A stretch of DNA of 64,000 nucleotides. Source: a virus. Both the position numbers and the translations under genes were made by a program. How positions within the stretch are numbered: the stretch's first letter is position 1; every line of letters starts with the position of its first letter. Of this stretch, positions 12,837-57,072 are shown one piece after another. The notes under the pieces were generated by a model. The model had not been told where the DNA came from, ran no database searches, and was given only the letters and a program-made list of their open reading frames with translations. Where the stretch lies: IMG/VR virus record IMGVR_UViG_3300027686_001029. One strand, 5' to 3'.

Positions 12837-13322
12837 TTATCTAATTTCATCTATTCCTAATCTATCTCCTCTTGTTAAATGACAATCAGCTATAATAGAT
12901 AATGAAGATCCGAATCCACTAGTGCTGTTAGTTAGGTTATAACTACTGTCTCTTCCTAAGAATAACTGGTTCTCTCTAACTGTATCTACTTCATAATAGT
13001 CATTGTGCCAAGCAATAATATCGCCTATCTCCGGTACTACTATAGAGTCTGTTAAATCAGGTCTTAAAAAAGCAAAAGATGCTTCTCTCCCTAAATCAGG
13101 GCCGAACTCTTGGATATCTACTACTTGATCACCTCTAGTAATTAAACAATTAAGTTTAACTGCATTGTTATAAAATTTTTCAAGTGCTTCTCCGTATATA
13201 TTAGCTTGAGTATCTTCTAAAGATAACTTATAGTACAGAATTTCTTGTTCTATAATATCAGCTAGTACTTCTCTATTGATGTTGACTAGTAAATCGAAAT
13301 CTCTGTTGGATCCAAATAGCAT
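12837..13322 (-). CDS. Neck/head-closure protein, gp14-like
   Basis: Position after the gp13-like gene; PEIGDIIAW...YYEVD head-tail connector-like motif. Confidence 0.55.
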   Translation of the reverse strand: MLFGSNRDFDLLVNINREVLADIIEQEILYYKLSLEDTQANIYGEALEKFYNNAVKLNCLITRGDQVVDIQEFGPDLGREASFAFLRPDLTDSIVVPEIGDIIAWHNDYYEVDTVRENQLFLGRDSSYNLTNSTSGFGSSLSIIADCHLTRGDRLGIDEIR

Positions 13323-13621
13323 TATTTTTCTTCTATTGTGTTATCACCTATCTCTACATCTTTGACTGGTGGGTATTTACTTATTGCATTTTGTTTTAGT
13401 GCTTGAAAAGCTTCTTGACCTTGTTTTTGAGTAATTAACTTTACCTTAAGAGTAACTTTACTAGTTTCTTCATCTGTACTTGCTATTGTAACTGTAGTAA
13501 CACCTGGTAATGCTCTTATTAGATCTCCTATTTCATTGGCATCGCTATCTTCATAAACGATTTGTACCATACCTTCGTATGTCATGAATTCTACTTCTGA
13601 TAGTATTTGTGTTAACTTCAT
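13322..13621 (-). CDS. Small protein with N-terminal MKLTQILSE tag
   Basis: ORF coupled to both neighbours; ferredoxin-like beta-alpha pattern (DLIRALPGVTTV). Confidence 0.6.
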   Translation of the reverse strand: MKLTQILSEVEFMTYEGMVQIVYEDSDANEIGDLIRALPGVTTVTIASTDEETSKVTLKVKLITQKQGQEAFQALKQNAISKYPPVKDVEIGDNTIEEK

Positions 13622-14763
13622 TACCCTATATAAATTACATTAGGTATATCGTTTTGGATAGTCCTTAAGTTATCTGACTCGCTAGCTCTTCTTTCTAGTT
13701 GAGATTGTCTAGAAGTTTGTTCTAACATCTCTCTTAAATTCTCTACCAATGCATCTTTTTCTGACCTTGCATCTGCAAGTAAATCACTCTGGTTTAATGT
13801 AGCTTCAGACCCAGGAACTGGTATGGTTTGATATTTTCCTCTTACATATGCTAATAACTCTTTTGCTAATGCTAAACTATACTTGAATACCCATTGTCTA
13901 CCGACACTATTAAATTGTGAGTATACAGGATTGGTATATGGTACTTCTCCTACATTAGTAATTAGGTCTCTAGCTGTATTTGGGGTGACATTCCTTTTAT
14001 CATCTACCCTATAGTACTCAAATCTTAAATTATGAGCTAAAGTAGGGACTGGGAATAATGTAAGGTTGTTATTAATTAATTTAAATGAATAGGCTGATCT
14101 TCTTATTTGATCATTAAATTCAATTGCTTGTACTTTAAGTATATCATATGAAGCCGGCATTAATAAGAAGTTAACTCCTGGACTAAATGATCCAAAATCA
14201 AAAGCATCCATTAATGACTGTACTCCTGTACCTGTTCCTGCATAAGGATCGAAGTAGCGCATGATAGCTGGTGGAGCTTCATAAAAAACTCTTCTTACTT
14301 CAATACTACCTGTAATTCCTGCTGAGGTTGCCCAAGCATCCATATTGTACTCTTGTACAGAGGCTGATACTTTTAGAGATCCTGTATACATTGTTACATT
14401 ACCTCCTACTTCTGCTTCTACCCCGTAAGAATCGCCTATACCTACTACTCTTTCAAGTGTTGGTTCAACTAATTGATTATTTAATGCACTGCCTGTAGTG
14501 CTTCCTTCAAGACTTAAGTAGTTCTCTCTAATTTTATATTGAAATACTTCATTTCCGTAAGTAGTTACTGCTTCTTCAAAGCATGCAAAAAAAGATCCTG
14601 ATTGTAGTTCGACATCCATTAGAGGAAATCCTAATCTGGTTCCACAAAATTTAGATACTTTAACTGCATCAGATTGAAAATCTGTATCTGCATCGTAGAA
14701 TCCAAATGGAGTCATTCCAACTGCAAATGTTGCACTACCGTCCCATATTGATACATTAGCCAT
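13621..14763 (-). CDS. Neck protein, gp13-like
   Basis: LGFPLMDVEL...FEEAV and WVFKYSLALAKELLAYVRGKY...GSEATLN motifs typical of T4-like gp13. Confidence 0.75.
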   Translation of the reverse strand: MANVSIWDGSATFAVGMTPFGFYDADTDFQSDAVKVSKFCGTRLGFPLMDVELQSGSFFACFEEAVTTYGNEVFQYKIRENYLSLEGSTTGSALNNQLVEPTLERVVGIGDSYGVEAEVGGNVTMYTGSLKVSASVQEYNMDAWATSAGITGSIEVRRVFYEAPPAIMRYFDPYAGTGTGVQSLMDAFDFGSFSPGVNFLLMPASYDILKVQAIEFNDQIRRSAYSFKLINNNLTLFPVPTLAHNLRFEYYRVDDKRNVTPNTARDLITNVGEVPYTNPVYSQFNSVGRQWVFKYSLALAKELLAYVRGKYQTIPVPGSEATLNQSDLLADARSEKDALVENLREMLEQTSRQSQLERRASESDNLRTIQNDIPNVIYIG

Positions 14764-14777
14764 TTAATAAAGTTTAT

Positions 14778-15600: not shown

Positions 15601-17205
15601 TTAGATTTGGTTTAAGTCAGCGATAAAGATCTTCCCGTAAAATTCTGGGCGAATCATTTTCTTAGCATAACGAGTCATTAAACCTTTTCTTGGAGTGAAG
15701 GTTTCAGGATCGTATACTAATGGAGTCATCAATAATGGAACGTAAGGAGCATATACTGCACCTGTTTCCAAGAATTGAGATCCTCTATATCCAGTTAGGA
15801 TTATATTCTCAGTCATGTAAGGATTTTTGTAAACTTTAAAGCGGTTAGCTAAGTTTCCAACTTTCTGTACACCCATTGAGAATTCTTGCTGATCACCATC
15901 AGTTGAAGCTGCATATCCAGGAATAGATTCTAGGATTGTAGCTACAGTTGGAGAACATACTAGGAAGTTTGCACCACCTCTTAATGTTTTCTGGTGAATC
16001 TTGTTAGATACTTTTTGGATTTTAGTTCCTAATGTTTGGAACCATTGTCCTTGAGTATTGTAAAAATCAGAAGTAGAAGTGATCCAGTTTCCTGCAGCGC
16101 TCATTACTTTGTTGTTTTCAGCAGACCATTTTTCAGTAGTTGCAGCATCTAAGATAAGCATGTCTAACAATTCAAGATCGATTTCCATTGAAATGTATTC
16201 ACTTAAAAGTGAAGTCAATTCAGCTTCAGCATCGATTGAATGGTAAGCATTTAAATCTTGTGCAAATTCTGGAGTCCATTGAGCTTTAAGTTTTCTTGTT
16301 TTAGCAACAATCGCCTCAGAGCTTAATTTTACGTCTACTTCAGGAATCTTGATAGAAGTATCAACAGCTACAGTTGAATCAGCTTCAAAGTCTCCTCTGT
16401 CGTTGTCTACTGGTGCTTTTACTGTCTTGATAGAACCTGTCATGTTAGCAGGTAGTCCAGCTGATACTGATTTAGATATTACGAAAGTTACTGTTGGAGT
16501 ACTTGCGTTAGCGTCTACTGTAGTAAGTGCTGGGTGAGATGTTACGTCTACTGCTCCAGAATAAATTCTAAATGCTCTTACTGCTTCTACGTCAATTGCA
16601 TCACCAGATGCGAATGTATGAGCGAAAGTAAAGAAGTCAGTTGGAGGTGCATCAGTTTGGTATGCAATAGAAGCACTAGTTGCTGCTCCTGGTACTGCTT
16701 GTGCAGCTACAGATGCAGTGTTAATAGAGTATCCGAATTTTCCAGCGCCGTAAAGACCTCCAGAAGGATCAACATCTTTTCCAATTTTTGAACCAGCTGT
16801 AGATACGTTACCGTACATGTTATCTCCTGCAGCACGTCCACCTGTTGAAGTTCCGTATTTGAAATCTAGATAAAATACTAGACCAGAAGGAAGATTCATT
16901 GGTTGTACTGAAACGAAGTCTTTTGCTACGATTTGAGCAAATACTTTACGTACTAGTGGTAAAGCTACACCTGCCCACTGCTCACCTTGACCAGCTGTAA
17001 ATGTTGCACCACCTGAGTTAGTACTGTTTCCTTCAGCTACGATTTGTTTAGCTTGGTTTTCAAGAATCATTGCCATGTTAGTAGCCTCTTTTTCTCCTAA
17101 ACCTTCTAACAAACCAGAAGCTTGCCATTTGTCCGCTAATTTAACGGCGTCTGCTTGAACGTTTTTATACCCGTTCGAGCTTTCTAATAGGTTGTTAATT
17201 TCCAT
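15601..17205 (-). CDS. gp23: Major capsid protein, T4 gp23-like
   Basis: LPLVRKVF, VSVQPMNLPSGLVFYL, AKTRKLKAQWTPEFAQDLNAYHSIDAEAEL, GAVYAPYVPL, MTRYA motifs. Confidence 0.97.
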   Translation of the reverse strand: MEINNLLESSNGYKNVQADAVKLADKWQASGLLEGLGEKEATNMAMILENQAKQIVAEGNSTNSGGATFTAGQGEQWAGVALPLVRKVFAQIVAKDFVSVQPMNLPSGLVFYLDFKYGTSTGGRAAGDNMYGNVSTAGSKIGKDVDPSGGLYGAGKFGYSINTASVAAQAVPGAATSASIAYQTDAPPTDFFTFAHTFASGDAIDVEAVRAFRIYSGAVDVTSHPALTTVDANASTPTVTFVISKSVSAGLPANMTGSIKTVKAPVDNDRGDFEADSTVAVDTSIKIPEVDVKLSSEAIVAKTRKLKAQWTPEFAQDLNAYHSIDAEAELTSLLSEYISMEIDLELLDMLILDAATTEKWSAENNKVMSAAGNWITSTSDFYNTQGQWFQTLGTKIQKVSNKIHQKTLRGGANFLVCSPTVATILESIPGYAASTDGDQQEFSMGVQKVGNLANRFKVYKNPYMTENIILTGYRGSQFLETGAVYAPYVPLLMTPLVYDPETFTPRKGLMTRYAKKMIRPEFYGKIFIADLNQI

Positions 17206-17226: not shown

Positions 17227-18306
17227 TTAAATTATACCGGCTAATTTCTGCATTCTACGAACTGCATCAGATACCTCATTAATTACTTCAGTACTTTGTT
17301 TAGTACTTCCAGTAGTTTTTGAAGCGCTTCCGAATGATTCTTTAATGCTAGCCTTTTTACTTTTTACTATAACGTTTTCACTTACAGTTTCGAAGACTAA
17401 TTTTACTTCTTTAACTGTTTCTGCTTTATCAAAAGCAGCAATAACGTTTACTTTTTGAGACTCAGATAAATCGTTTGCCTTAAAGATCTTATTAACGTAA
17501 AGTAATTTTGCGTTAAGAATATTAACTTCGTTAAGTTCTGATTTAAGAGTTTCGATAGTTTCTAAAGCTTCTTTTAAAGTATGGTTAACATTTTTGGTTT
17601 TAGTATCTGCTACTTCTTCCATTGTGTCTTCCTCTTTATCCTTTTTAGGAGCTTCATCCATATCTTCGTCCTCTTTAGGAGCTTCTGATAATGAGTCAAG
17701 TTCTTTAAGTAATTCATCAAGGTCAATCTCGTCAGCATCTCCTTCTAAATCATCCATTGCGTCAATTTCAGTGTCTGGTTCATCACCAAGTCCTTCAATA
17801 TCTCCAGCGTCTAATTCAGCTCCAAGATCGTCGCCAGCTTCTCCAGCTCCAACTTCTTGTGAGATAATGTCTCTAATCATGTCCTTAAATTGGTCAACAG
17901 AGAGGTCAGATAAATCTGCATCTCCATCAACTTCTTCTTCGTGAGCCTCATCATCGTGAGCCTCAGCGTCGATTTCGTCGTCTGTAATTTCTTCAGCGTC
18001 GTCAGCAGTTTCTTCTGCGTCATCCTCGGCTTCGTCAACTTCTACTAAACCTTCATCTGTGTCGTCTTTAGCATGTGCTTCGTCTTTGTCGTCTTTATGA
18101 TGAGCTTCTTCAACTTCCTCTTCGACTTCGTTTACTACTTCTTCTTCAGTCGATGAATCTTCCATCTCTTGAAGTTTAGCAGCTAACATGTCTTTTAAAT
18201 GAGGAGTCAATGACTCTTCTAAAGCTTCCTTAGCGTTAGCAATAGCGGCTTCACGTACAGACTTAGCTTCAGCAATAGCTTGCTTGAATAAATCTTTGTT
18301 TGCCAT
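17227..18306 (-). CDS. Prohead core scaffold protein, gp22-like
   Basis: Very acidic coiled-coil protein immediately upstream of the capsid gene; multiple L/I-x-E sites. Confidence 0.8.
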   Translation of the reverse strand: MANKDLFKQAIAEAKSVREAAIANAKEALEESLTPHLKDMLAAKLQEMEDSSTEEEVVNEVEEEVEEAHHKDDKDEAHAKDDTDEGLVEVDEAEDDAEETADDAEEITDDEIDAEAHDDEAHEEEVDGDADLSDLSVDQFKDMIRDIISQEVGAGEAGDDLGAELDAGDIEGLGDEPDTEIDAMDDLEGDADEIDLDELLKELDSLSEAPKEDEDMDEAPKKDKEEDTMEEVADTKTKNVNHTLKEALETIETLKSELNEVNILNAKLLYVNKIFKANDLSESQKVNVIAAFDKAETVKEVKLVFETVSENVIVKSKKASIKESFGSASKTTGSTKQSTEVINEVSDAVRRMQKLAGII

Positions 18307-19263: not shown

Positions 19264-19842
19264 TTACGCTCTTAGTATATCGTTGAGTATTGAATCTAGA
19301 TTTAAGTAAGGAGATACTTGAGATTTACCTTCTTGTAGTGTTATAGGATTCATAAATGCTCCATGAGTAGAAGGATTAGATACAAAGTCCCAACATACTA
19401 ATTCAAAGTCTGGTTGTACTTCTAAATGTCCTTCATTAGTTTGATTAACTGAGCCTGTTCCTCTAGAAGAGATACCAATAGTATGACCTGCTTTTATAAT
19501 CTCCTTAACAATATTACCTGATGGAGTATTAAGTAGTTCTACTTTACCCATAAGATCATCTCCTTTCCACCATAAGTCTTTAACTACGTGGGAAGCATTT
19601 TTTAAAGATACGATTGGAGATTCTGGGTGATCTAGTTCTCCAAAAGCATTTCCTCTTTTAACGAATTCATCTACATACTTCTTAGCTTCTCTCATGAGAA
19701 TCTCTTTTTTGTAAACTCTACCGTTTTGATTTTCTGCTTTAGCTCTTTGCATAACACCCTCTACTTCATAAACTCCAGGTCTCCCTTTCGCTTCTTTTAG
19801 TACGGACTTAAATGGCGTAACATCTACTAGTAATTGTGTCAT
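19264..19842 (-). CDS. gp21: Prohead protease, T4 gp21-like
   Basis: NQNGRVY, AFGELDHP, NASH, IGISSRGTGS, WDFVSNPS motifs. Confidence 0.95.
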   Translation of the reverse strand: MTQLLVDVTPFKSVLKEAKGRPGVYEVEGVMQRAKAENQNGRVYKKEILMREAKKYVDEFVKRGNAFGELDHPESPIVSLKNASHVVKDLWWKGDDLMGKVELLNTPSGNIVKEIIKAGHTIGISSRGTGSVNQTNEGHLEVQPDFELVCWDFVSNPSTHGAFMNPITLQEGKSQVSPYLNLDSILNDILRA

Positions 19843-21534: not shown

Positions 21535-21768
21535 TTATATATAATCTATAAGTTTAGTGCTTGTGGGCCTTTTAGGTCTCTTAACTACTTTTAAACCGTC
21601 TTTCTTTGATGATTTAGTTGCTTTATTTTTTGTTTCATCTGTACCGAATGCTCCTACATGTCCTTTAGCAGATCCTTGACCTGCTTTCATTGTAGCTCCT
21701 CCCGTATTTGTGGTACTAGTTTCTGTTAATACTTCTCTTACTAATTGTATTAGAATAGATCTTTTCAT
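21535..21768 (-). CDS. Small tagged head-associated protein
   Basis: MKRSILIQLVREVLTE followed by a Gly/Lys-rich peptide. Confidence 0.55.
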   Translation of the reverse strand: MKRSILIQLVREVLTETSTTNTGGATMKAGQGSAKGHVGAFGTDETKNKATKSSKKDGLKVVKRPKRPTSTKLIDYI

Positions 21769-21769: not shown

Positions 21770-22624
21770 TTAGAATGTTTTTAGTTCATTAACTAAATCA
21801 TAATATTGCATAAGATTAACTAAATGACTATCTTTAATTTTCTCTTTAGCACTTACTGGTTTGATAGATTTAGAAATTTCATCTAATTTAATCTTTACTA
21901 CTTCGTCTTTAATTTTAGCTCCGTACTTATTGATTATATCGCTAATCTTAATAAGTTCCTCATTAACTATTTTACGTAAAGCAGAAGTAGATTCAACTGA
22001 TGTAATAAAGAGTTTTAATATATTCTTCTGTTCAGGAAGGAGTTCTTTATAGTTATCGTTGAATTTTTCTAATAGTATTTTAAATGTTAATAATCTTAAA
22101 TCTTTGTCGTATTTAGAATACTCCTCGATTAAACTTTCTTTAACATCATCTTTATCCTGTATAGTGGAAGTAAGGTGTTCTAAAATTGTAGTTTTATTAT
22201 TTACTAAATCTGAAGGAGATACTATTGTTTTAGCATTCTGTCCTTCTAGTAAACAGTAAAGGGAAGCAAGTGCTTTATAGTCTCTAACTTGAATAGCAAA
22301 AAAATCATCTATATTATACGATTTCTTTATTTCAGCTACAAGAGCATACTTCTGTTTTTTAAGTTGCGACTGATCTAGTTTTCGAGATACCTCAGTTATA
22401 GTAGAAAGTATAGTTTCAGCTTTGTGCCTGTCTACTCCTCTATTCTTTAATATAAATTCATATAATTTGAATTCTCTTACTAGCGATGTTCTTCCTCCGA
22501 AGTGGTTCTTTAGTATACCTACAGCCTTACTATCCTTATTGTTAAGTGTATCAGCAGCTATCTGCTTTACTAACAATTCGAAGATAAGACCAGTATTACG
22601 TAATTTTGAGTGTTTTATTTTCAT
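21770..22624 (-). CDS. Hypothetical helical protein between portal and protease
   Basis: 284-aa ORF with its own TATTTATA box at 22641-22648. Confidence 0.65.
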   Translation of the reverse strand: MKIKHSKLRNTGLIFELLVKQIAADTLNNKDSKAVGILKNHFGGRTSLVREFKLYEFILKNRGVDRHKAETILSTITEVSRKLDQSQLKKQKYALVAEIKKSYNIDDFFAIQVRDYKALASLYCLLEGQNAKTIVSPSDLVNNKTTILEHLTSTIQDKDDVKESLIEEYSKYDKDLRLLTFKILLEKFNDNYKELLPEQKNILKLFITSVESTSALRKIVNEELIKISDIINKYGAKIKDEVVKIKLDEISKSIKPVSAKEKIKDSHLVNLMQYYDLVNELKTF

Positions 22625-22652: not shown

Positions 22653-24548
22653 TTAGTTTCCTAAATCTCTAATGTTATCCTCTTTTAACATTTCTGATTC
22701 TTTCACCGTATCTTTCTTAAAGACAATATCTTTGAGCATATCTTTATTTTTATGGTAAACTGTTTTAGTTGTTAGGCCTTCCATAACATTGTCATTGTCT
22801 GAAGGAAAGCCTCCATGCATGCCATGTGTCCCTAGAGGATCACGTCCTCCTAAGCCTTTATTAGTACCGTATATAGATGCCTTCTCAGTTGGTCTTCCTC
22901 CTTCTGGGCCTGGTTCTCCCCATTCAGGTGTTTCTTCTACTTCGGAATATCCAGGAGGTAAATCATCTGGTCCTCCGCCTTTCGGTGTTGAAGTAGAACG
23001 TCTACCGTACATAGAAGCAAGATCATGTGGTGTACCGTAAGAAGTACCTGATTTAGCAGGATCGTTTCCTTCACCTTCTATCTGTGCTATTCTGAATAGT
23101 CGTTTACTATCTTCTCTAACTAAGTCTCTCATTTCCATGTAAGCATCTTCTGATAGATCGAATATATTTTCATATATGTAGTCTGAAGAGAATAGTTTAG
23201 TGTCTTTCATTTGGTTTGCAAGATCTACCTTCTCTTTTAATAGAGCTATTTTCTCTTGTTCAAATATAATAGATGGAGTAGTTAACTTTAATTCAAAGTT
23301 AGTTAAACTCTCACCTGTAAATCCTTGAGTATATAAATGTACTAAAGCTATCTTAGTTAACTCTGATTCTATAATTCTTTGTATTCTCTCTACTGTACGA
23401 GCAAATCTAATATCTTCTGCTGCTAGAGTAGCTTTCCCGCTTAAATCACCTTCATATCCAAAGTATGCCTTAGGTATCTTTAATGCAGCAAATAACTTAG
23501 CTTGTAAGTACTGTACATCGTTTGTTCCATCGTACTCTAATCCTTTAGTAGTCTCAATACGAGTAGAAGTATCTCCTCCTCTAACAGGTAGATAGAAATC
23601 TTCCATCATATTCTGCATATTGAACTTTAAGTTATATTGACCATCAGATCCTACATAAGGAGTCTTTTTCATCTGTGTAATAGTCTTCTGCATAAAGTTC
23701 TCTACTTCATTAGGAGGTATATTACCTACATTAACGTAGAACATTCTTTTCTCAGGAGCTCTCATTATACGGTGTATTAACATCGCATCCTCCATAAGAG
23801 TAACTTGTTTATATATCTTTCTTGCTGGTTCTAAGTAAGAACGGCCGTAAGGTAGGTAGTTAGTATCTGATAGTAATCTAAAATGTGCTATTTCGTAGTT
23901 ATCAAATTGTATTGTTTTAGCATCTCTTTTAGGTATATAATTAGGATCTTGAGAAGAAGCTAATCCATCAGGATCTAATTGAAAAGTTACACCTTGAGGT
24001 TTTTCAGGATCTAATCCTTCAAATCTTACCATATTATATACGGTATAAGGAATAACATTATAAACACCAAATTTCTCTGCTATCTCTAACTTTAAGAAAA
24101 AGTCACCGTGCTTACACATATTACGTGTCCAGCTCCATAAGTTAAATTCTATGTTAAGTACATCGTAGAATAAATTATATAGTACTCTTTGTATATTCTC
24201 ATCTGATGATTTAATTCCTAGTACTTCATTCTTATCACTCTTTACAGTAGCTTCATCTGCTAGAATATCTAAAGCTGATGCTATGATAGGATCAGTATCC
24301 ATTGCCTCATAATCAGAATAGAGTTGAATCCTTAATGTCTGATAATTTACATTAGGGTTAAATATATTTTTATTGTTGTATATATAAAGACGGCTAAATT
24401 TGTCCATCAGTGAGTTAGTCTGGTATTTACCAGTACTCTGTATATTGTTAGTATCAACTATCTTTAATTGATCCCCTCCGATATTTCTTACTATTACATC
24501 GGATGAAAATAATCTTGACAGTCTACTAAATAATGAGCGGTTCGCCAT
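22653..24548 (-). CDS. gp20: Portal protein, T4 gp20-like
   Basis: EDAMLIHRIMRAPEKRMFYVNVGNIP, MEDFYLPVRGG...T-I-E-T, LFAALKIPK motifs. Confidence 0.95.
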   Translation of the reverse strand: MANRSLFSRLSRLFSSDVIVRNIGGDQLKIVDTNNIQSTGKYQTNSLMDKFSRLYIYNNKNIFNPNVNYQTLRIQLYSDYEAMDTDPIIASALDILADEATVKSDKNEVLGIKSSDENIQRVLYNLFYDVLNIEFNLWSWTRNMCKHGDFFLKLEIAEKFGVYNVIPYTVYNMVRFEGLDPEKPQGVTFQLDPDGLASSQDPNYIPKRDAKTIQFDNYEIAHFRLLSDTNYLPYGRSYLEPARKIYKQVTLMEDAMLIHRIMRAPEKRMFYVNVGNIPPNEVENFMQKTITQMKKTPYVGSDGQYNLKFNMQNMMEDFYLPVRGGDTSTRIETTKGLEYDGTNDVQYLQAKLFAALKIPKAYFGYEGDLSGKATLAAEDIRFARTVERIQRIIESELTKIALVHLYTQGFTGESLTNFELKLTTPSIIFEQEKIALLKEKVDLANQMKDTKLFSSDYIYENIFDLSEDAYMEMRDLVREDSKRLFRIAQIEGEGNDPAKSGTSYGTPHDLASMYGRRSTSTPKGGGPDDLPPGYSEVEETPEWGEPGPEGGRPTEKASIYGTNKGLGGRDPLGTHGMHGGFPSDNDNVMEGLTTKTVYHKNKDMLKDIVFKKDTVKESEMLKEDNIRDLGN

Positions 24549-24580: not shown

Positions 24581-26155
24581 CTAAAATAACCAGCGTAAAT
24601 CTTCTTTCTCGCCGTTGTTAGTATCCATAAGATAAGGATTATCTAGCTGACTACCAACATTTTGTATAATAGCTTTGTTTTTTGAATTTAAATTAGTAAA
24701 AGAAGAGAGGGATGCTCGTGCTAGATCCATTCCTTGTTGTCTCAACTTTAATGCAGTATCTCTAACGTAGAGTGCGGTTGCGAAAGCAATAACTAAATCA
24801 TCATTATATCTTGTTTGTGCTTGAGGTTTTCCGTTCTTCCAAACAAATACTCTCATTTCTCCGAGTAAACGTTTAGATTGTATTGTTGCTGATTTATCTC
24901 TTATATATTCTATTGCTTTAGCAATAACAAGAGGTCTAGTACGAACAGACATTGTAAAGCCAGGTACTAGCTTATCTCTCTCATACTTAGACATATAAGA
25001 TTCAACTGTCTCCATATTAGAAGTAGTACTGTAGTAGAGGTTCTTATATTGACGTTCTAGTGCTTGTTCTATAGTAGCCCACCCAATATTAGCATTCTCT
25101 ATAACTAATAGTGCATCATTATATTCTGATGCTATTCCTACTAGTACATTACCGAAATCTTTAGGTGATAGTTTACCTTTATATTCTGCTACCTGTACGC
25201 AATTTTCTACATCAAATATATGAAATGCAGAATAATCCTGTCCATCTCCTCGAGCTACATCTGCTACAACCATATACGATTTACCGTAATCAGCTGCCTC
25301 CCAAACCCATAGGTTACCGTCTGCTCCTCTTCTTTCCATTGGTTCAGATAAAGTAGTCTGTTCTATGAATAGCATATCATCTGGCTCAAATACTGTTTCA
25401 CCAGAAGCTAAGAAGTCACAGTCACATTCTTGTCCTGCCATACGAGGACCTAAGTCTTTAGTCTGTTGTTCTCTCCATTCCTCGTTTCTTTCAGGATGTA
25501 CTGTCCAGGGTAGTCTAATAGGTACAAATGAATTCTCTCCTGATTCTGCTTTCTCCCATGTCTGATGGAACCAATTACCTATGCCGTTAGGAGTAGATAA
25601 GGCCATACATTGCCCACCGGTAGCAAGTGTCTGTTGTGCAGCAGCAAAGGTTTCATCAATGTTATCTACAAAGGCTGCTTCATCAATTAATAGTAATGAT
25701 ACTGCTTCTGATCTTGCTGCATCTGCATTAGATGATTTTGCTTGTACTTTAGAGCCGTTCTTTAATCTAAGAGATAGTTTGTTTTTCTCTAATGCCGGTA
25801 ATCTAAGCCATTTAGGTAGTTGATCGTACATAAAGATAACCTTAGTAACTAGGTTACGTGCGGTTGCTTGAGTTGTAGCTAAAGCTAAAACATTCTTATC
25901 TTTATGAAATGTCATTAACCATAAGGAGTATGCTGAAGCTAATGTTGATATACCTAACTGTCTTGATTTAAGAGTGATAAGGTATTGATTGTCTCTAAAT
26001 AAATGTAGTACTTTTTCCTGAAAAGGGTATAGAGAGAATAAGATACGACCACGAGTAGGGTGTTGTATATAACAGTACTTTTTCATAAAGTACGCCGGGT
26101 CTTTAGCACACTTAATATATTCTTGTGCTATTATCTTTTTTATGTCTTGTGCCAT
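24581..26155 (-). CDS. terL: Terminase large subunit, T4 gp17-like
   Basis: LKSRQLGIST Walker A, LLLIDEAAF Walker B, STPNG, RNase H-like VADVARGDGQDYSA and DDLV. Confidence 0.96.
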   Translation of the reverse strand: MAQDIKKIIAQEYIKCAKDPAYFMKKYCYIQHPTRGRILFSLYPFQEKVLHLFRDNQYLITLKSRQLGISTLASAYSLWLMTFHKDKNVLALATTQATARNLVTKVIFMYDQLPKWLRLPALEKNKLSLRLKNGSKVQAKSSNADAARSEAVSLLLIDEAAFVDNIDETFAAAQQTLATGGQCMALSTPNGIGNWFHQTWEKAESGENSFVPIRLPWTVHPERNEEWREQQTKDLGPRMAGQECDCDFLASGETVFEPDDMLFIEQTTLSEPMERRGADGNLWVWEAADYGKSYMVVADVARGDGQDYSAFHIFDVENCVQVAEYKGKLSPKDFGNVLVGIASEYNDALLVIENANIGWATIEQALERQYKNLYYSTTSNMETVESYMSKYERDKLVPGFTMSVRTRPLVIAKAIEYIRDKSATIQSKRLLGEMRVFVWKNGKPQAQTRYNDDLVIAFATALYVRDTALKLRQQGMDLARASLSSFTNLNSKNKAIIQNVGSQLDNPYLMDTNNGEKEDLRWLF

Positions 26156-26165: not shown

Positions 26166-27695
26166 TTAATCTATCTTAGAGATATTCTGTATCTCAATAG
26201 TACCTTGTGTATTCCCATTACTCCTTGCATTAACAGCAACCGAATATGGAACACCTCCTTGGGTAATTTTAAAAAACAACTTTAATCCTCCAAAGGTAGT
26301 ACTATCTTGTACTTCTATAGGGTCTTTCTTGTCTTCGTTATCACCGTATAAATCTATAACCTCTCCTCTTGCGAAAACAGATAACTTAGCTTTACCTCCT
26401 GATGATTGGCCTTCTACTTTAAAGAATGCAGGATTAACTCCAGTTAATGACATTGCAAAACCAGCTATTGCTACTATTGCATCATCTACTTTACTGTCTG
26501 CAAACTTCCTAAATAAAAATTCAATAGACTTTAAAGCTGCATACTTACCTCTTAACCATTTTGATGGGTCTTTTATTTGAGAAGTAGGTTCGGAAGGTAG
26601 TTCACCGGTATCTACATTATATATTATGTTAGGATTACCTCCTACTAAACCTTCTACTTTCTTACGTAGTCTTTTAATACCTTTTTGGTATTTAACAATG
26701 TCGTAATCTATTTCGTCACTAGTTAGGTTGTAGTCATCTTTGACTTTAGAAAATGCACTGAGTAGTGCCTTAGCTTTTCCTCCTTGAGCATTTTGCTGTT
26801 TAAGAGATATAGCTGTTAAAGGTCTTTTTGTACTGCTCCATTCTTCATTAAATAGGCCGTTGAGATTTTCCACGGATTGTATACTTTCTAAACCACTTAC
26901 TTCACCTGTCTGAATATATACGTCTCCTGGGCACCATTTGTCTGCTGGTAAGCTAGTAAGATTAATTGCTTTCTTTCTGATATCGTCGAATAAACCTGTT
27001 CTAATTAAATTAGCTCCTGGGTATCCTTCTTTCAGTGTCAATGCACTTGAGAGTGGTTGGTTGATAAATTTAATATACGCATTAGAACTACCAATACTTT
27101 CTAAATAACTTGCTACCTTAGCACTTGCTTCAGAACTCTCTCCTGGGATGCCATTCTTAGTTAAACTTAGTAAGTTATTTGCTCTTGACTCTATATTATC
27201 TTTAGTAAATGGTGTAGTAATGTCACTTACATAGAATAAAGAAACTAATGCTTCCTTAATATCAGTATCTGCTTTATCTGCAGTAGGAGTTCCTTTAAGA
27301 GAAATCTTATACTCTTTACCTCTAAAAGTAATAGTACAGAAACCAACTGATGAATTACCAGCATTACTGTATTTATAGGAAGTTATTTCGTTTTCTTCTC
27401 TAGCTAAATTTTCTATTTCATCAAACACACTCTTACGTAAATCTGTAGATTGTCCTCCTGTTGAAGGTATATCGGAAAAAGTTAAAGTAAGTGAAGTACT
27501 ACCTTTACTTGTTATATCACCGTAACCGTCTATATTACTTGTAATAAAATTTACTAGGTCTACGTTTTCATTCAATAAGGGATTAAAACCAAACATAGAT
27601 TCAAACAAAGCCATATCCTCTTGACTATTAATGTCAGGATATCCTTTAGTGGTCTTATATGACCATTCTAATAATACTTTGTCTATAAGATTCAT
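26166..27695 (-). CDS. Putative PD-(D/E)XK nuclease with a tagged N-terminus
   Basis: DIKE...DKWCPGDVY...AISLK pattern of restriction-like nucleases; N-terminus MNLIDKVLLEWSY. Confidence 0.55.
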   Translation of the reverse strand: MNLIDKVLLEWSYKTTKGYPDINSQEDMALFESMFGFNPLLNENVDLVNFITSNIDGYGDITSKGSTSLTLTFSDIPSTGGQSTDLRKSVFDEIENLAREENEITSYKYSNAGNSSVGFCTITFRGKEYKISLKGTPTADKADTDIKEALVSLFYVSDITTPFTKDNIESRANNLLSLTKNGIPGESSEASAKVASYLESIGSSNAYIKFINQPLSSALTLKEGYPGANLIRTGLFDDIRKKAINLTSLPADKWCPGDVYIQTGEVSGLESIQSVENLNGLFNEEWSSTKRPLTAISLKQQNAQGGKAKALLSAFSKVKDDYNLTSDEIDYDIVKYQKGIKRLRKKVEGLVGGNPNIIYNVDTGELPSEPTSQIKDPSKWLRGKYAALKSIEFLFRKFADSKVDDAIVAIAGFAMSLTGVNPAFFKVEGQSSGGKAKLSVFARGEVIDLYGDNEDKKDPIEVQDSTTFGGLKLFFKITQGGVPYSVAVNARSNGNTQGTIEIQNISKID

Positions 27696-27980
27696 TTAAT
27701 TACCTAATACTGTTTTTAAAGCATCTTCTGCTGATGTTTTCGGTTGTTCATCCATAAATGCGATTGCAGCTCTAGCAATATCTATTACTCTCTGCTCTTG
27801 TTTTGCATTTTTACCCATGCTAACTTGAAGAACTTTAGGATCTACTTTTGCAGTAGGTACTCCTCCTCCTTTTTCTATGTGTTTAGCAAAGTCGGATTCA
27901 TAACCCCATGCTTCATTTTTAGAACTTGGAGTAAGTTTATTCTCTGTTAAGAAATTTCTAAGGTCAAAATTGTTTTTCAT
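27696..27980 (-). CDS. Small tagged protein
   Basis: MKNNFDLRNFLTENK matches the C-terminal motif of 19849-21534. Confidence 0.6.
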   Translation of the reverse strand: MKNNFDLRNFLTENKLTPSSKNEAWGYESDFAKHIEKGGGVPTAKVDPKVLQVSMGKNAKQEQRVIDIARAAIAFMDEQPKTSAEDALKTVLGN

Positions 27981-31436: not shown

Positions 31437-32066
31437 TTAGTTATCCCAAATAATATTCTTAAACTTCTCAGGTTCTGTACCAAAGAATTCTGTTCGCCAA
31501 AGGGACTGTTCGAAAAAGTCGAGATTAATCCACTCATCTTTCCTTCCCCACAATTCTTTTGCTGCATGATCCCAGTCTAAGTTAAGAACTAATCTCTCAA
31601 TTTCCAACTTTTTTTCAAGTACTTTATCGTACTCAAAAGAATCCCATTCGTAGTGAAATACTTCAAATACTGCATCTGGAGATACATAATCTATAGAGAT
31701 ATCTATACCCCATTTTGGTTTCATTTTAATAAGTTTATAGAGCATTGGATTATAATCTTCTGCAAATATCTCTAATTGCTGTAATGCTTGATCTTTAAAT
31801 CCTTTTCTTTCAAATAAGTCTGAGTGATTTATATGAGCTCCTGATTTCTTATCCCATGTAATCCAGTCGTGTCTAAGACAGTCCTCATGACGTCTTTCTA
31901 TAGCTTCAAATCCATTACGTGATAAGTATGCTTGTTCAGCTTTTGTTAAGTGGTAGCCGTTTTGATCGAATAAATCAACACAGTTAGGGTCTTTGAGTAT
32001 AGACGGGTCTTCTATAGCATCTAGAAAGTACCCTTGAGGAGTTAGTTTACTATCGCTTAATTTCAT
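31437..32066 (-). CDS. Hypothetical protein (Trp/Asp-rich)
   Basis: 209-aa ORF coupled to the upstream gene. Confidence 0.6.
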   Translation of the reverse strand: MKLSDSKLTPQGYFLDAIEDPSILKDPNCVDLFDQNGYHLTKAEQAYLSRNGFEAIERRHEDCLRHDWITWDKKSGAHINHSDLFERKGFKDQALQQLEIFAEDYNPMLYKLIKMKPKWGIDISIDYVSPDAVFEVFHYEWDSFEYDKVLEKKLEIERLVLNLDWDHAAKELWGRKDEWINLDFFEQSLWRTEFFGTEPEKFKNIIWDN

Positions 32067-40416: not shown

Positions 40417-40611
40417 TTATTTGTTTTGGAGCAGTTCGTTAATAGCAGTTGCTACTGTAATCCTTATAAGGTCTCTGTTGCCTGTGTCTAGGAATTCTTC
40501 TAGTTGATTTGTTATAGATTCAGTTAGTTTATTGATATCATCATTAGACATATCTACTTCTGTTCTTGCTACAATAGTTTTATCTTCTAGTATAATTTTG
40601 GATAGTTTCAT
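40417..40611 (-). CDS. Small tagged protein (MKLSKIILE)
   Basis: ORF track plus shared N-terminal tag. Confidence 0.65.
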   Translation of the reverse strand: MKLSKIILEDKTIVARTEVDMSNDDINKLTESITNQLEEFLDTGNRDLIRITVATAINELLQNK

Positions 40612-40952
40612 TTTACATCGCTTTGTGAAAACTCGAATTGTATTCTAGGATAGTAATATCTATCCCCATCATCATCATAGTAATTAGCTTCTGATGTTAC
40701 ATTATATTTTCTGGTTTTAAGGAACGCTACTACTTGTCTAAATGTGTCATCTGGAAGTGCTTCTTCAACTTTAAATTCAACTGATCCATATCCTTTCCCT
40801 GCATTAGGTCCGTCCTCAACATAATGCCCCATACTAACCATTGGATTATAATCACCGTATCCAACAGTAAGCTCTTTTGTTATATCGAGAGCTACATGCT
40901 TATATTTATCATAGTCATGTCCTTCTGTTAAGATAATATCTGATAGTTTCAT
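40608..40952 (-). CDS. Small tagged protein (MKLSDIILTE)
   Basis: ORF track plus shared N-terminal tag. Confidence 0.7.
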   Translation of the reverse strand: MKLSDIILTEGHDYDKYKHVALDITKELTVGYGDYNPMVSMGHYVEDGPNAGKGYGSVEFKVEEALPDDTFRQVVAFLKTRKYNVTSEANYYDDDGDRYYYPRIQFEFSQSDVK

Positions 40953-40962
40953 TTAAGTTATT

Positions 40963-41314: not shown

Positions 41315-41632
41315 TTATCCGTGTTTAATAATTAACTCTCCTAGAACCTCTAACCTCCCCATTTCTTTTTGAAACGCCGTCTGGCTCATAGTAGAACTAA
41401 TTTTTTTGTGAGTCTCTTCAAACTCTTTTTGAGCTGCTTCTAGATTAAATTTTCCGTCAGCTGCTTTTTTATAATAAGAAAGCTTTACGTTAAAGTGTTC
41501 ATAAGTTAATAATGAATCACCTCCTTTTTCTTTAGCAGATGAAGCAATTTTACTTGCTCCTTTTTCTCTACCTTCAGCAAAGTCATCGAAAGTTTCTTTT
41601 GTATCCTCTAATATAAGTTTAATTAATTTCAT
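41315..41632 (-). CDS. Small tagged protein (MKLIKLILE)
   Basis: ORF track plus shared N-terminal tag. Confidence 0.7.
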   Translation of the reverse strand: MKLIKLILEDTKETFDDFAEGREKGASKIASSAKEKGGDSLLTYEHFNVKLSYYKKAADGKFNLEAAQKEFEETHKKISSTMSQTAFQKEMGRLEVLGELIIKHG

Positions 41633-41635
41633 ATC

Positions 41636-42421: not shown

Positions 42422-42422
42422 A

Positions 42423-42728
42423 TTATTTCATTTCTGGGTGAAACATAAATTTTATTATTTTTGCATCTTTAGATACTTCTACACCGTCTATCTCTATTCC
42501 TATAGGATAAGGCTTAGTCTTATCGTCTGCCCAGTATGCTACATCGTAACTTTTATCTTTATTGCTAGTTACTAGTAATCCTCTATTATATGTATCCTCC
42601 TCTGCTTGGAGTACAACCATTTTATCAGTAGGAAGAATCATATCACCCATTAGTTTGATATCTCCTTCGTCGTAACCGTCGTCGTTGTACCTGTTATCTT
42701 CTTTTAGAATTATATCTGCTAGTTTCAT
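42423..42728 (-). CDS. Small tagged protein (MKLADIILKE)
   Basis: ORF track plus shared N-terminal tag. Confidence 0.7.
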   Translation of the reverse strand: MKLADIILKEDNRYNDDGYDEGDIKLMGDMILPTDKMVVLQAEEDTYNRGLLVTSNKDKSYDVAYWADDKTKPYPIGIEIDGVEVSKDAKIIKFMFHPEMK

Positions 42729-45763: not shown

Positions 45764-45765
45764 TG

Positions 45766-47452: not shown

Positions 47453-47455
47453 TCA

Positions 47456-56216: not shown

Positions 56217-56626
56217 TATTGTTCGAAGTTAATAATTACTTCATCTTCTATGTTAGTATCTTGAACAGTGTACGACATTGCAAACTGAACTGTGTGTGTG
56301 TCTGGGTCTCCTACTGTAGTTAGGTTGATTATATTTACTCTAGGAAATAATACTTCCATATCTCTTTCTACAGTTGATTGAATTTGACTGACCTTTTCTT
56401 GTGTTAGATTATCAAAAAGTAAGTTTTGTAGTCTATTCCCAAAATTAGGATTCATAAAGCGTTCTCCTTTGGCTGTTAAGAAGTAATTGATTATATTGGT
56501 TTTAAGTGCATCTTTAGACGTGTAGGTAGAGTTAAAAACAGCTTTTCCAGAAAACGGAAGGGCTACCCCTACTGCTTTACTAGGTTGTGTGTCTATTACG
56601 CTAAGTCTTGTTACTTCAAATGCCAT
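56216..56626 (-). CDS. gp25: Baseplate wedge/sheath initiator, gp25-like
   Basis: LLT-KGER-MNP-FG pattern (FLTAKGERFMNPNFG); FPRV. Confidence 0.9.
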   Translation of the reverse strand: MAFEVTRLSVIDTQPSKAVGVALPFSGKAVFNSTYTSKDALKTNIINYFLTAKGERFMNPNFGNRLQNLLFDNLTQEKVSQIQSTVERDMEVLFPRVNIINLTTVGDPDTHTVQFAMSYTVQDTNIEDEVIINFEQ

Positions 56627-57072
56627 TATCTACGTCCTTTTTCTTTATCTTTTTCTATTGAGGCTTTATATATAGCGCCTGCATTTTTTAAAAATGGAAG
56701 TGTGGATAAATCAAGACCTGGTGCAGGACCTGTATTTTCTGTCATTCCCATTTGAGATGCTCCTCTTGAAGCAAAATTAGGTGCAATTGGACCTGAGGTT
56801 CCTGATATGTTTTTATATTCCTCGTTAGACATGGTGTTAGCAGTCTGATTTAACATTTCTTCTAACGTGGACGACTTACCTGATGTCCATTGTTGTTTTT
56901 TTAATTCTTTTTTCGGTGCTGACCAGCTTGTATTACCTGCTTCTGGGGCTGCAGTCATAGTTGTTGGAGCACTGGCTGCTTTAACAGCCTCGTTCATAAC
57001 TTCTTGTAGCTCTGCCTTTATAGCAGATCTAACCTCTTCTCGTATGATTTTTCTTAATTGATCGAGTTTCAT
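56626..57072 (-). CDS. Hypothetical protein with MKLDQLRKIIREE N-terminus
   Basis: ORF; TATTTATA box ends 1 nt before the ATG. Confidence 0.65.
   Translation of the reverse strand: MKLDQLRKIIREEVRSAIKAELQEVMNEAVKAASAPTTMTAAPEAGNTSWSAPKKELKKQQWTSGKSSTLEEMLNQTANTMSNEEYKNISGTSGPIAPNFASRGASQMGMTENTGPAPGLDLSTLPFLKNAGAIYKASIEKDKEKGRR

What the first reader, a model, noticed from the sequence alone, without database searches (positions are those of the whole stretch)
13322..57072. A portable N-terminal capsid-targeting-like tag on about 13 unrelated proteins: a putative packaged and injected cargo battery
N-termini: MKLTQILSE (13621), MKRSILIQLVREVLTE (21768), MNLIDKVLLE (27695), MKNNFDLRNFLTE (27980), MKGKDLRNLILE (29211), MKLTLAQLIGE (32389), MKQKISELLAE (34990), MIKLMHILTE (37769), MKLSKIILE (40611), MKLSDIILTE (40952), MKLIKLILE (41632), MKLADIILKE (42728), MKLDQLRKIIREE (57072). 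Downstream sequences are unrelated, and some tags are similar at DNA level (ATGAAACTATCAGATATTATC versus ATGAAACTAGCAGATATAATT). T4 internal proteins use a roughly 10-aa capsid-targeting sequence ending in Glu, removed by gp21, and are injected (IPI blocks GmrSD). Here the tag is also on a kinase, a HAD phosphatase and a nuclease-like protein. Inference: a zip-code cassette that recruits new enzymes into the head for delivery at infection, concentrated in 26-43 kb. It could also serve as a protein-delivery tool.
Basis: partly seen in the sequence, partly recalled or inferred. Interest (0 to 1): 0.8.

Follow-up and report, generated by a model that had tools for sequence, protein, structure and literature searches.

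The report
Capsid-address tags on phage cargo proteins
An uncultured marine T4-like phage puts a short N-terminal tag on about 15 unrelated proteins, including two enzymes; the tag ends in the cutting site of the phage's own head protease, so these proteins are most likely loaded into the capsid as phage T4 loads its internal proteins.

Summary
All 13 N-termini read as stated, and each ends in hydrophobic-[L/I]-x-Glu at residue 9-16. The motif occurs on 16 of 47 ORFs in window 13322-57072 against 6 of 188 elsewhere in the 177-kb genome (Fisher 2e-8).

The bodies behind the tags are unrelated by BLAST. Synonymous codons vary freely at the conserved positions.

The window holds a T4-type head module: portal gp20, an S77/gp21 prohead protease (37% identical to T4 gp21, catalytic motifs kept), an acidic scaffold and a gp23-type capsid protein. 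T4 gp21 cuts after L/I-x-E, and the T4 capsid targeting sequence is MKTYQEFIAE.

Orthologues of tagged proteins keep the site in 100% of cases. Orthologues of terminase, portal and untagged neighbours never have it.

More distant relatives of the tagged kinase family lack the tag and start at the P-loop strand. The gene upstream of terminase carries a conserved 43-residue leader on 8 unrelated bodies.

The best reading is T4-type capsid-targeting propeptides on a large, fast-changing cargo set. Packaging, cleavage and injection are inferred, not shown.

This is a new variant of a known mechanism. The scan has already noted the same kind of tag in other T4-like phages, on other DNA.

The parts
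19264..19842 (-). Prohead protease, S77/gp21 family. It is the enzyme proposed to remove the tags. Its own N-terminus is MTQLLVDVTPFKSVLKE.
   Evidence: Pfam PF03420 at E 8.7e-35. It is 37% identical to T4 gp21 and keeps GELDHP and GISSRG. The N-terminal [LI]xE is kept in 21 of 21 orthologues.
17227..18306 (-). Acidic scaffold in the gp22 position. It starts MANKDLFKQAIAE and ends RRMQKLAGII.
   Evidence: The sequence is. T4 gp22 starts MLKEQLIAE. The N-terminal site is kept in 6 of 6 orthologues. The same tail is seen in the relatives that hold the gene (23 ORFs; 8 distinct sequences).
15601..17205 (-). Major capsid protein, gp23 family. Its propeptide holds NLLE8, GLLE34, MILE49 and IVAE58. 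The predicted maturation cut is IVAE58|G.
   Evidence: Pfam PF07068 at E 5.9e-81. The alignment to T4 gp23 places IVAE roughly opposite the known SFLTE65|A cut, but the region is heavily gapped.
22653..24548 (-). Portal, gp20 family. It is untagged and serves as a negative control.
   Evidence: Pfam PF07230 at E 3e-67. None of 31 orthologues has the motif.
24581..26155 (-). Large terminase. It is untagged and serves as a negative control and as the anchor of the variable locus.
   Evidence: PHROG 2 and Pfam Terminase_6N. None of 27 orthologues has the motif.
21535..21768 (-). 77-residue basic head-core protein in the T4 gp67 position. The tag is MKRSILIQLVREVLTE|TSTTNTGGAT.
   Evidence: Residues 5-32 are 46% identical to the capsid protein's propeptide junction, residues 47-74. 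The site is kept in 6 of 6 orthologues.
21770..22624 (-). 284-residue protein next to the portal, with MKIKHSKLRNTGLIFE at its N-terminus.
   Evidence: The site is kept in 17 of 17 orthologues. The protein holds 8 matches to a wider pattern that also allows V at P3 (4 to the search pattern).
26166..27695 (-). 509-residue cargo with a 43-residue leader: MNLIDKVLLEWSYKTTKGYPD...FESMFGFNPLLNE|N. The body begins with a Pol-beta nucleotidyltransferase-like palm domain.
   Evidence: The leader is about 80% identical across 8 unrelated bodies at this locus. E43 and N44 are invariant in 40 homologues. In the AlphaFold model the leader is two helices followed by a disordered stretch (37-41) just before the cut. 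VIA gives Z 8-9.7 to TUT4/7, mtPAP, OASL and cGAS over residues 40-137.
27696..27980 (-). 94-residue protein with the class-B tag MKNNFDLRNFLTE|NKLT.
   Evidence: The same tag heads at least 17 body clusters in relatives and three proteins of phage immuto.
27991..29211 (-). 406-residue, very acidic protein (net charge -51). The tag is MKGKDLRNLILE.
   Evidence: Homologous C-terminal parts occur in relatives under the tags MHKLEKLILE and MKKSKFKKIILE.
32063..32389 (-). 108-residue basic protein with a zinc-ribbon-like motif. The tag is MKLTLAQLIGE.
   Evidence: The site is kept in 2 of 2 orthologues. Its C-terminal module also occurs on other tagged proteins of 79 and 417 residues.
33471..33833 (-). 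120-residue protein with the tag MTQKETLDSLLKE.
   Evidence: The site is kept in 12 of 12 orthologues.
34442..34990 (-). NT5C-type 5'-3' deoxyribonucleotidase (HAD family). The tag is MKQKISELLAE, with a second P-L-P-E site at residue 17.
   Evidence: PHROG 2643 at E 1e-23, starting at residue 23. In the orthologue N-termini listed from 120 hits, nearly all keep LL(x)E and a few have Asp at P1. All show about 27 residues before DMDGV.
36831..37769 (-). P-loop phosphotransferase of the polynucleotide-kinase / zeta-toxin class. The tag is MIKLMHILTE.
   Evidence: Pfam Zeta_toxin at E 2.9e-9. The AlphaFold model has pLDDT 94 overall but 48 over residues 1-10. Foldseek finds CthPnkp, zeta/PezT and PSTK. 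Across 50%-identity representatives, tagged members have the P-loop at residue 21-22 and untagged ones at 7-13.
40417..40611 (-). 64-residue protein with the tag MKLSKIILE.
   Evidence: The orthologue in G002 starts MKLSKVILEN.
40608..40952 (-). 114-residue protein with the tag MKLSDIILTE.
   Evidence: It is found in only 1 of 5 related records. That orthologue starts MKLRDIILEN.
41315..41632 (-). 105-residue protein with the tag MKLIKLILE.
   Evidence: The immuto orthologue starts MRLLELLRE.
42423..42728 (-). 101-residue protein with the tag MKLADIILKE. Its body is a mobile module.
   Evidence: It is 86% identical to residues 329-427 of a 557-residue nucleotidyltransferase fusion in relative G001, where the module is preceded by DISNLQE.
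56626..57072 (-). 148-residue protein among baseplate genes. The tag is MKLDQLRKIIRE.
   Evidence: The first 15 residues are identical in G001 and G002, while the bodies are 46-50% identical.
13322..13621 (-). 99-residue protein downstream of the head-completion gene, starting MKLTQILSE. This is the least secure tag.
   Evidence: The G001 orthologue starts MKLITIIEQ. The G002 ORF was called from an internal Met.

Best explanation
The tags are most likely T4-type capsid targeting sequences, that is, propeptides.

Proposed mechanism:
1. Late in infection each tagged protein docks through its short amphipathic N-terminal helix onto the scaffold core of the assembling prohead. The helix has hydrophobic residues at P7, P4 and P3.
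2. When the gp21-family protease is activated inside the prohead, it cuts after the Glu of hydrophobic-[L/I]-x-E. This frees the mature protein inside the head.
3. The protein stays in the head with the DNA and probably leaves with it at the next infection.

Longer leaders do the same job at a variable cargo locus. These are the 43-residue two-helix KGYPD leader upstream of terminase and the NFDLRKFLxENKLT leader.

What is shown:
- The motif exists, is enriched and is clustered.
- Its constraint acts at the amino-acid level.
- It is conserved in orthologues.
- It appears on unrelated bodies.
- The matching protease and head module are present.

What is inferred:
- The tags dock onto the core.
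- The protease cuts them.
- The proteins are packaged and injected.
- The cargo has some function in the host.
For: (1) A head module of T4 type with an S77 protease lies in the window. The protease is 37% identical to gp21 and keeps its catalytic His and Ser motifs.

(2) T4 gp21 cuts after L/I-x-E. The first 10 residues of IPIII suffice for packaging; residues 4 and 7 matter for targeting and 8 and 10 for processing (PMC9026906).
- T4 N-termini read directly: ipII/ipIII MKTYQEFIAE, gp22 MLKEQLIAE, gp24 MAKINELLRE, gp21 MNEPQLLIE.
- The window's tags keep P7 (11 of 13, p = 0.001), and keep P4, P3 and P1.

(3) Enrichment and clustering: 16 of 47 against 6 of 188 ORFs. The background in T4 itself is about 5%.

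(4) Orthologue test. The N-terminal [LI]xE is kept in 100% of distinct orthologue N-termini for:
- kinase 6/6
- NT5C 12/12
- 120-residue protein 12/12
- 284-residue protein 17/17
- 77-residue protein 6/6
- protease 21/21
- scaffold 6/6
- capsid protein 11/11
It is kept in 0% for terminase (0/27), portal (0/31), nucleotidyltransferase (0/8) and two untagged neighbours (0/9, 0/8).

(5) Portability:
- The kinase family has tagged members (P-loop at residue 21-22) and untagged members (P-loop at 7-13).
- A 38-residue leader that is 80% identical sits on 8 unrelated bodies.
- The class-B tag sits on at least 17 body clusters.
- A module 86% identical occurs as a tagged stand-alone gene here and inside a fusion protein in a relative.

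(6) Structure. In the kinase model the tag is a low-confidence helix (residues 4-10) outside a core with pLDDT 94. In the 509-residue model, invariant E43|N44 follows a disordered linker.

(7) The tag and junction of the 77-residue core protein resemble the capsid protein's own propeptide junction.

(8) Codons at the conserved positions follow the genome's synonymous usage.

(9) Phage immuto and two complete relatives show the same pattern on partly different proteins.
Against: - No virion proteome, N-terminal sequence or packaging assay exists for this clade. Two literature searches found none.
- Some cargo makes little obvious sense in a capsid. The dNMP nucleotidase and the kinase sit in an operon with an untagged nucleotidyltransferase, beside primase and exonuclease genes. 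The tagged genes are therefore not all in a purely structural block.
- A few NT5C orthologues have Asp instead of Glu at P1. In T4 that change blocks processing.
- In more distant homologues of the 509-residue family the first site (VILE10) is absent. Only the later sites are conserved.
- The residue after the cut varies here (D, G, N, S, T, W), whereas several T4 sites read here have Ala.
- At a background of 3-5%, about 2 of the 16 hits in the region could be chance.
Confidence: 0.75

Rival explanations
1. The N-terminal helix is a common handle for some other phage or host partner and has nothing to do with the capsid. The partner could be a chaperone, a degradation adaptor or a membrane or replication-factory anchor. 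The terminal Glu would then be part of that binding motif.
For: Several tagged proteins are enzymes encoded beside replication-type genes. The class-B tag stays conserved past the predicted cut (ENKLTxNS), which a pure protease site would not need.
Against: The same motif heads the phage's own scaffold, protease and capsid protein, whose T4 counterparts are known gp21 substrates. The conserved positions match those mapped for the T4 capsid targeting sequence. No alternative partner gene was found to co-vary with the tags.
Confidence: 0.12
2. The tag is a leader recognised by a modifying enzyme, as in RiPP systems, for example one of the genome's radical-SAM enzymes. An earlier scan note proposed this for a shared 16-17-residue tag in phage RB43.
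For: A precedent note is e1-127136.
Against: The tags here are short and degenerate and are defined by a protease-type site. They are shared with head proteins. They cluster by the head module, not by the radical-SAM island, which lies about 95 kb beyond the window's end.
Confidence: 0.04
3. The pattern comes from composition or from translation initiation. In an AT-rich genome without Shine-Dalgarno sites, starts rich in Lys, Leu and Ile codons arise anyway, and the match to L-x-E is chance.
For: Many ORFs begin with MK. The regex has a 3-5% background.
Against: There is a tenfold excess confined to one region (Fisher 2e-8) and shuffled N-termini never reach the observed count. The site is conserved in 100% of orthologues against 0% for controls. 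Synonymous codons vary at the conserved positions.
Confidence: 0.03
4. The tagged genes are diverged paralogues of one ancestral small gene, and the N-terminus is simply their best-conserved part.
For: Four small tagged genes lie together at 40417-42728, and two of their tags are similar at the DNA level.
Against: There is no body similarity at E < 1e-3. The bodies include a P-loop kinase, a HAD nucleotidase and a nucleotidyltransferase-like fold, which cannot be paralogues. Untagged kinase relatives exist.
Confidence: 0.03

Closest known systems
Capsid targeting sequence (CTS) of phage T4 internal proteins IPI, IPII, IPIII and of Alt, removed by prohead protease gp21 (Mullaney and Black 1996, cited in PMC5694885; reviews PMC3012670, PMC9026906)
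   Same: - An N-terminal propeptide of 9-16 residues that ends in [L/I]-x-Glu.
- Hydrophobic residues at the positions of IPIII Tyr4 and Phe7.
- A gp21-family protease and a T4-type scaffold, portal and capsid protein encoded alongside.
- The tag sits on unrelated proteins, including an enzyme; in T4 that is Alt, an ADP-ribosyltransferase.
- The phage's own scaffold, protease and capsid protein carry similar sites.
   Different: - The set is larger: about 15 tagged ORFs against about 10 known gp21 substrates in T4.
- The tag sequence family differs: MKLxx[IL]ILxE rather than MKTYQEFIAE.
- There are extra, longer leader classes: NFDLRKFLxENKLT and a 43-residue two-helix KGYPD leader.
- The cargo includes a polynucleotide-kinase/zeta-class kinase, an NT5C nucleotidase and a nucleotidyltransferase-like protein.
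- The host is probably a marine member of the Flavobacteriia.
- Nothing has been shown experimentally.
Variable internal-protein loci of T-even phages: diverse defence-countering proteins that share only a conserved CTS (PMC3012670, citing Repoila et al.)
   Same: A conserved leader sits on bodies that change between close relatives at fixed genome positions. Here the positions are upstream of terminase and upstream of primase.
   Different: The bodies here are large (370-509 residues) at the terminase-proximal locus. No counter-defence function has been shown or predicted for them.
Propeptide-bearing ejection and inner-body proteins of giant phages phiKZ, 201phi2-1 and SPN3US (PMC5694885, PMC9026906)
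   Same: Many head-internal proteins are processed after Glu by a gp21 homologue. The propeptides are proposed to target the proteins into the prohead.
   Different: Those phages use S/A-x-E sites and mostly propeptides longer than 100 residues. Here the sites are L/I-x-E and the tags are T4-length.

Membership tests
T4-type capsid targeting sequence / gp21-processed propeptide | Extreme N-terminal position, length about 10-20 residues | tested here: met
   The Glu lies at residue 9-16 in all 13 tags. One leader is longer, at 43 residues.
T4-type capsid targeting sequence / gp21-processed propeptide | The tag ends in the gp21 cleavage motif L/I-x-E | tested here: met
   13 of 13 tags end this way. 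The site is kept in 100% of orthologues of the tagged families tested. The motif itself is from PMC9026906.
T4-type capsid targeting sequence / gp21-processed propeptide | Hydrophobic residues at the targeting positions (IPIII residues 4 and 7, that is P7 and P4) | tested here: met
   P4 is hydrophobic in 13 of 13. P7 is hydrophobic in 11 of 13, against a 39% background (p = 0.001).
T4-type capsid targeting sequence / gp21-processed propeptide | A gp21-family (S77) prohead protease encoded by the same phage | tested here: met
   PF03420 at E 8.7e-35. It is 37% identical to gp21 with the His and Ser motifs kept.
T4-type capsid targeting sequence / gp21-processed propeptide | A T4-type prohead core: a gp22-like scaffold and gp67/68-position proteins that are themselves substrates | tested here: met
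   There is an acidic scaffold with MANKDLFKQAIAE, and a 77-residue and a 284-residue protein lie between portal and protease. Assignment is by position and composition only; no sequence family was matched.
T4-type capsid targeting sequence / gp21-processed propeptide | The tag is sufficient for packaging into the head and is removed there | not testable with these tools
   This needs virion mass spectrometry or a tag-reporter packaging assay.
T4-type capsid targeting sequence / gp21-processed propeptide | The mature protein is ejected into the host with the DNA | not testable with these tools
   This needs an infection assay.
Zeta-toxin / polynucleotide-kinase P-loop phosphotransferases (ORF 36831-37769) | Walker A P-loop and the fold of this kinase class | tested here: met
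   G22, G27 and K28 are invariant. Pfam Zeta_toxin at 37 bits, above the 22.3 cut-off. Foldseek finds CthPnkp and zeta/PezT at E 1e-5. The substrate is unknown.
Pol-beta-type nucleotidyltransferases (body of ORF 26166-27695) | Palm-domain fold together with the G[GS]...DxD catalytic carboxylates | tested here: inconclusive
   The fold matches at Z 8-9.7 over residues 40-137. Within that aligned palm stretch I saw no invariant G[GS]...DxD in alignment A1; an invariant D143 with near-invariant D145 lies just after it.

The most novel reading that the evidence does not exclude
This widespread marine phage clade uses several interchangeable address leaders to load a fast-evolving set of enzymes into the head. 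The set includes a kinase family that carries the tag in much of its known diversity and a hypervariable nucleotidyltransferase-like protein. The enzymes would be injected with the DNA and act before any phage gene is expressed. If so, the injected proteome of uncultured phages could be read from sequence alone.
Probability: 0.4. Interest if true: 0.75.

Novelty: new variant of a known kind. Interest (0 to 1): 0.58.

Why it matters
If the tags work as in T4, a simple sequence rule predicts which proteins an uncultured phage carries in its head and delivers at infection. The rule is an N-terminal amphipathic helix that ends in the head protease's own site.

Such proteins act before transcription starts, so they are prime candidates for counter-defence and host-takeover functions.

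Here the predicted set is larger than T4's. It turns over between close relatives at two fixed loci, and it includes enzymes with no known role in capsids.

The clade is abundant in marine metagenomes: about 600 terminase relatives were found in IMG/VR.

The principle and its use as a delivery tool are already established for T4. The gain is in breadth and in new leader types, not in a new mechanism.

Tried and rejected
- **Megablast** of 24 kb against the phage collection found no match. The relative was found through the capsid protein instead.
- **Pfam and PHROGs** gave nothing for most tagged bodies or for ten variant bodies of the terminase-proximal locus.
- **The ESM Atlas** gave only weak restriction-enzyme leads (0.87-0.88) for the 509-residue protein. 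I did not adopt them. Structure search points to a nucleotidyltransferase-like palm domain instead.
- **Complex prediction** of the scaffold with the 64-residue tagged protein gave no verdict (score 0.00). It is not used as evidence either way.
- **The idea that the class-B tag copies the C-terminus of the 561-residue head protein** was rejected. Relatives' orthologues end before it and are followed by a separate tagged gene, so the C-terminal copy in this genome is most likely a relic of a lost or fused gene.
- **The search for related loci** with the 114-residue protein found only a near-identical fragment.
- **Literature searches** for virion proteomics of this clade found none.
- **Upstream motifs.** A CTATTTATA motif precedes the portal, head-completion and sheath-like genes and the units that hold tagged genes. 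This fits late co-expression but is only a consensus match, so I give it little weight.
Full report
**What the window is.**
- All long ORFs lie on the minus strand.
- The window is part of a single 177-kb phage contig.
- Its closest cultured relative is Flavobacterium phage vB_FspM_immuto, with a capsid protein 68% identical.
- About 600 IMG/VR contigs encode a terminase; the best 80 are 83-99% identical.
- The window holds a T4-type head module:
  - large terminase (24581-26155)
  - gp20 portal (22653-24548, PF07230)
  - S77/gp21 prohead protease (19264-19842, PF03420, E 8.7e-35)
  - an acidic scaffold (17227-18306)
  - a gp23-type capsid protein (15601-17205, PF07068)
- The protease is 37% identical to T4 gp21 and keeps the GELDHP and GISSRG motifs.

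**Check of the observation.**
- The 13 N-termini are exactly as stated, and so are the quoted DNA strings.
- Each tag ends in hydrophobic-[L/I]-x-Glu at residue 9-16.
- With the regex [ILVFM][LI].E ending at residue 8-17, 22 of 235 ORFs match genome-wide.
  - 7.7 are expected from internal positions.
  - 8.4 +/- 2.7 are expected from shuffled N-termini.
- The hits are concentrated: 16 of 47 ORFs in window 13322-57072 against 6 of 188 elsewhere (Fisher 2e-8).
- The same procedure on T4 gives 18 of 271 ORFs. Five are known gp21 substrates, so the background is about 5%.
- P7, which was not part of the regex, is hydrophobic in 11 of 13 tags against 39% at internal matches (p = 0.001).
- The bodies show no BLAST similarity to each other.
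- Codons at the conserved Leu, Ile and Glu positions follow the genome's synonymous usage. The constraint therefore acts on the peptide, not on the DNA or RNA.

**Comparison with T4, read from the T4 record.**

| T4 protein | N-terminus |
|---|---|
| ipII, ipIII | MKTYQEFIAE |
| gp22 | MLKEQLIAE |
| gp24 | MAKINELLRE |
| gp21 | MNEPQLLIE |
| Alt | MELITE |
| gp67 | MEGLIE |

- The review PMC9026906 states that gp21 cuts after L/I-x-E and that the first 10 residues of IPIII suffice for packaging.
- It also states that residues 4 and 7 matter for targeting and residues 8 and 10 for processing.
- The tags here keep those four positions (P7, P4, P3, P1).
- The phage's own head proteins behave like their T4 counterparts:
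  - scaffold: MANKDLFKQAIAE
  - protease: ...SVLKE17
  - capsid protein: a propeptide with four sites. IVAE58|G lies roughly opposite the T4 gp23 cut SFLTE65|A, although the alignment is heavily gapped there.
- The 77-residue protein in the gp67 position has a tag and junction (REVLTE|TSTTNTGGAT) that is 46% identical to the capsid protein's junction.

**Conservation test.** I defined orthologues by body similarity only, in 80 related loci and two complete related genomes. I then asked whether [LI]xE occurs in the first 19 residues.

| Protein | Orthologues keeping the site |
|---|---|
| kinase | 6/6 |
| NT5C | 12/12 |
| 120-residue protein | 12/12 |
| 284-residue protein | 17/17 |
| 77-residue protein | 6/6 |
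| protease | 21/21 |
| scaffold | 6/6 |
| capsid protein | 11/11 |
| terminase | 0/27 |
| portal | 0/31 |
| nucleotidyltransferase fusion | 0/8 |
| untagged neighbour | 0/9 |
| untagged neighbour | 0/8 |

- ORF 13322-13621 is the least secure.

**Portability.**
- *Kinase family.* Among 50%-identity representatives of the family (184 hits), most full-length members carry M[IK]KLxx[IL]LxE plus a linker, with the P-loop at residue 21-22. A distinct subset starts directly at the first strand, with the P-loop at 7-13. Profile matches to solved kinases begin after the tag. In the AlphaFold model (pLDDT 94) residues 1-10 score 48 and lie outside the core.
- *NT5C.* The orthologue N-termini listed from 120 hits have about 27 residues before the DMDGV motif, nearly all with LL(x)E, followed by P[LI]xE.
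- *Gene upstream of terminase.* It has a leader, MNLID[KR]VILEWSYKTKKGYPD...FGFxLxE. Its first 38 residues are on average 80% identical across 37 proteins whose bodies fall into 8 unrelated clusters. In 40 homologues E43 and N44 are invariant. The model shows two leader helices and then a disordered stretch just before the cut.
- *Class-B tag.* NFDLRKFLxENKLT heads at least 17 body clusters in relatives and three proteins of immuto.
- *Mobile module.* The 101-residue ORF 42423-42728 is 86% identical to an internal module of a 557-residue fusion protein in relative G001. The window's own orthologue of that fusion lacks the module.
- *Relatives.* G001, G002 and immuto carry similar numbers of tags in the same two regions, partly on different proteins.

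**What the cargo is.**
- The kinase belongs to the polynucleotide-kinase / zeta-toxin / PSTK class. Its substrate is unknown.
- ORF 34442-34990 is an NT5C-type deoxyribonucleotidase.
- The mature 509-residue protein starts with a Pol-beta nucleotidyltransferase-like palm domain. VIA gives Z 8-9.7 and rmsd 2.4-3.2 over about 90 residues, and all listed hits have that fold. I saw no invariant catalytic carboxylates within the aligned stretch.
- No tagged protein looked like a nuclease.
- Mature charges range from net +11 (the 108-residue protein; the 77-residue one is +9) to net -51 (the 406-residue one).

**Interpretation.**
- The best explanation is a T4-type capsid-targeting and processing system with an enlarged, fast-changing cargo set and additional leader types.
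- Docking, cleavage, packaging and injection are inferred by analogy.
- The tagged enzymes sit beside primase, exonuclease and an untagged nucleotidyltransferase. A few NT5C orthologues have Asp at P1. Not every tagged protein therefore need be processed.
- The rival readings fit the data much less well. Each is set out with its evidence in the rival explanations.

**Novelty.**
- The mechanism is published for T4. So is the idea that T4-like phages use it to load varied proteins (PMC3012670, PMC9026906).
- The scan has also noted the same kind of tag in other T4-like phages, including one of aquatic Flavobacteria (e1-5732066).
- New here:
  - the size of the set in this clade
  - the leader classes
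  - the hypervariable locus upstream of terminase
  - the enzyme cargo, especially a kinase family that carries the tag in much of its diversity

Noticed in passing
window 19849-19900 (C-terminus of ORF 19849-21534): The 561-residue head-module protein ends ...NGTLRENNTNFDLRKFLKENK. Orthologues in relatives stop at ...NGTLRE(T)KKK and in several relatives are followed by a separate gene that starts M(K)NNFDLRKFL. This genome seems to have lost that gene and fused its tag to the upstream ORF.
   Followed up: partly
window 42423-42728 and L093:4835-6508: A 91-residue module is a tagged stand-alone gene here and an internal part of a nucleotidyltransferase-zincin fusion in relative G001 (86% identical). 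There it is preceded by DISNLQE, itself an L-x-E site. The fusion protein may therefore be cut into modules.
   Followed up: partly
window 18429-19163: A 244-residue ORF (MSNLFIYGCSHSAH...) sits between protease and scaffold. It has no orthologue in the related loci and no Pfam or PHROG match, so it looks like an insertion into the head module.
   Followed up: no
genome 172654-173037 (outside the window, about 90 kb beyond its start): A 127-residue ORF starts MKNIQTFVKKVINE|AAKINF. Its orthologues in G001 and G002 keep [LIV][IV]xE|AAK, so it may be a further tagged protein far from the head module.
   Followed up: partly
window 38654-39436: The PD-(D/E)XK exonuclease starts MIKQGMNILE, and its immuto orthologue starts MIQKGQNVLSE. 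This may be a weak tag or chance; 2 of 3 orthologues keep [LI]xE.
   Followed up: partly
L001:27676-28140 and L001:41627-42868 (phage immuto): The immuto scaffold ends ...RWQKLAGIIK, and a 154-residue immuto protein begins MKKQILSEQFRRMQKLAGIITE. The scaffold's conserved tail is thus reused as an N-terminal leader there. In the window's genome the motif occurs only at the scaffold's end.
   Followed up: partly
upstream of window ORF starts 57072, 38650, 33833, 31396, 24548, 22624, 15476, 14763: A motif (C)TATTTATA(ATA) precedes head, neck and sheath-like genes and the units that hold tagged genes. A different motif, TTCGTATATT...GGTATAAT, precedes small ORFs elsewhere. These are candidate late and early promoters.
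   Followed up: partly
window 1265-5592 and 43235-46407: Tail-fibre-like genes share N-terminal modules: MxxWKK.I.SGS on three ORFs and MA[IL]TFR on two. Two of them also share C-terminal similarity, and so do two adjacent ORFs at 46409-48484.
   Followed up: no
T4 record NC_000866, 18966-19130 (gene 61.1): T4 gp61.1 (54 residues) starts MKTFKEFIKE, close to the ipI start MKTFKEF and to the CTS MKTYQEFIAE. It came up in the calibration run.
   Followed up: no
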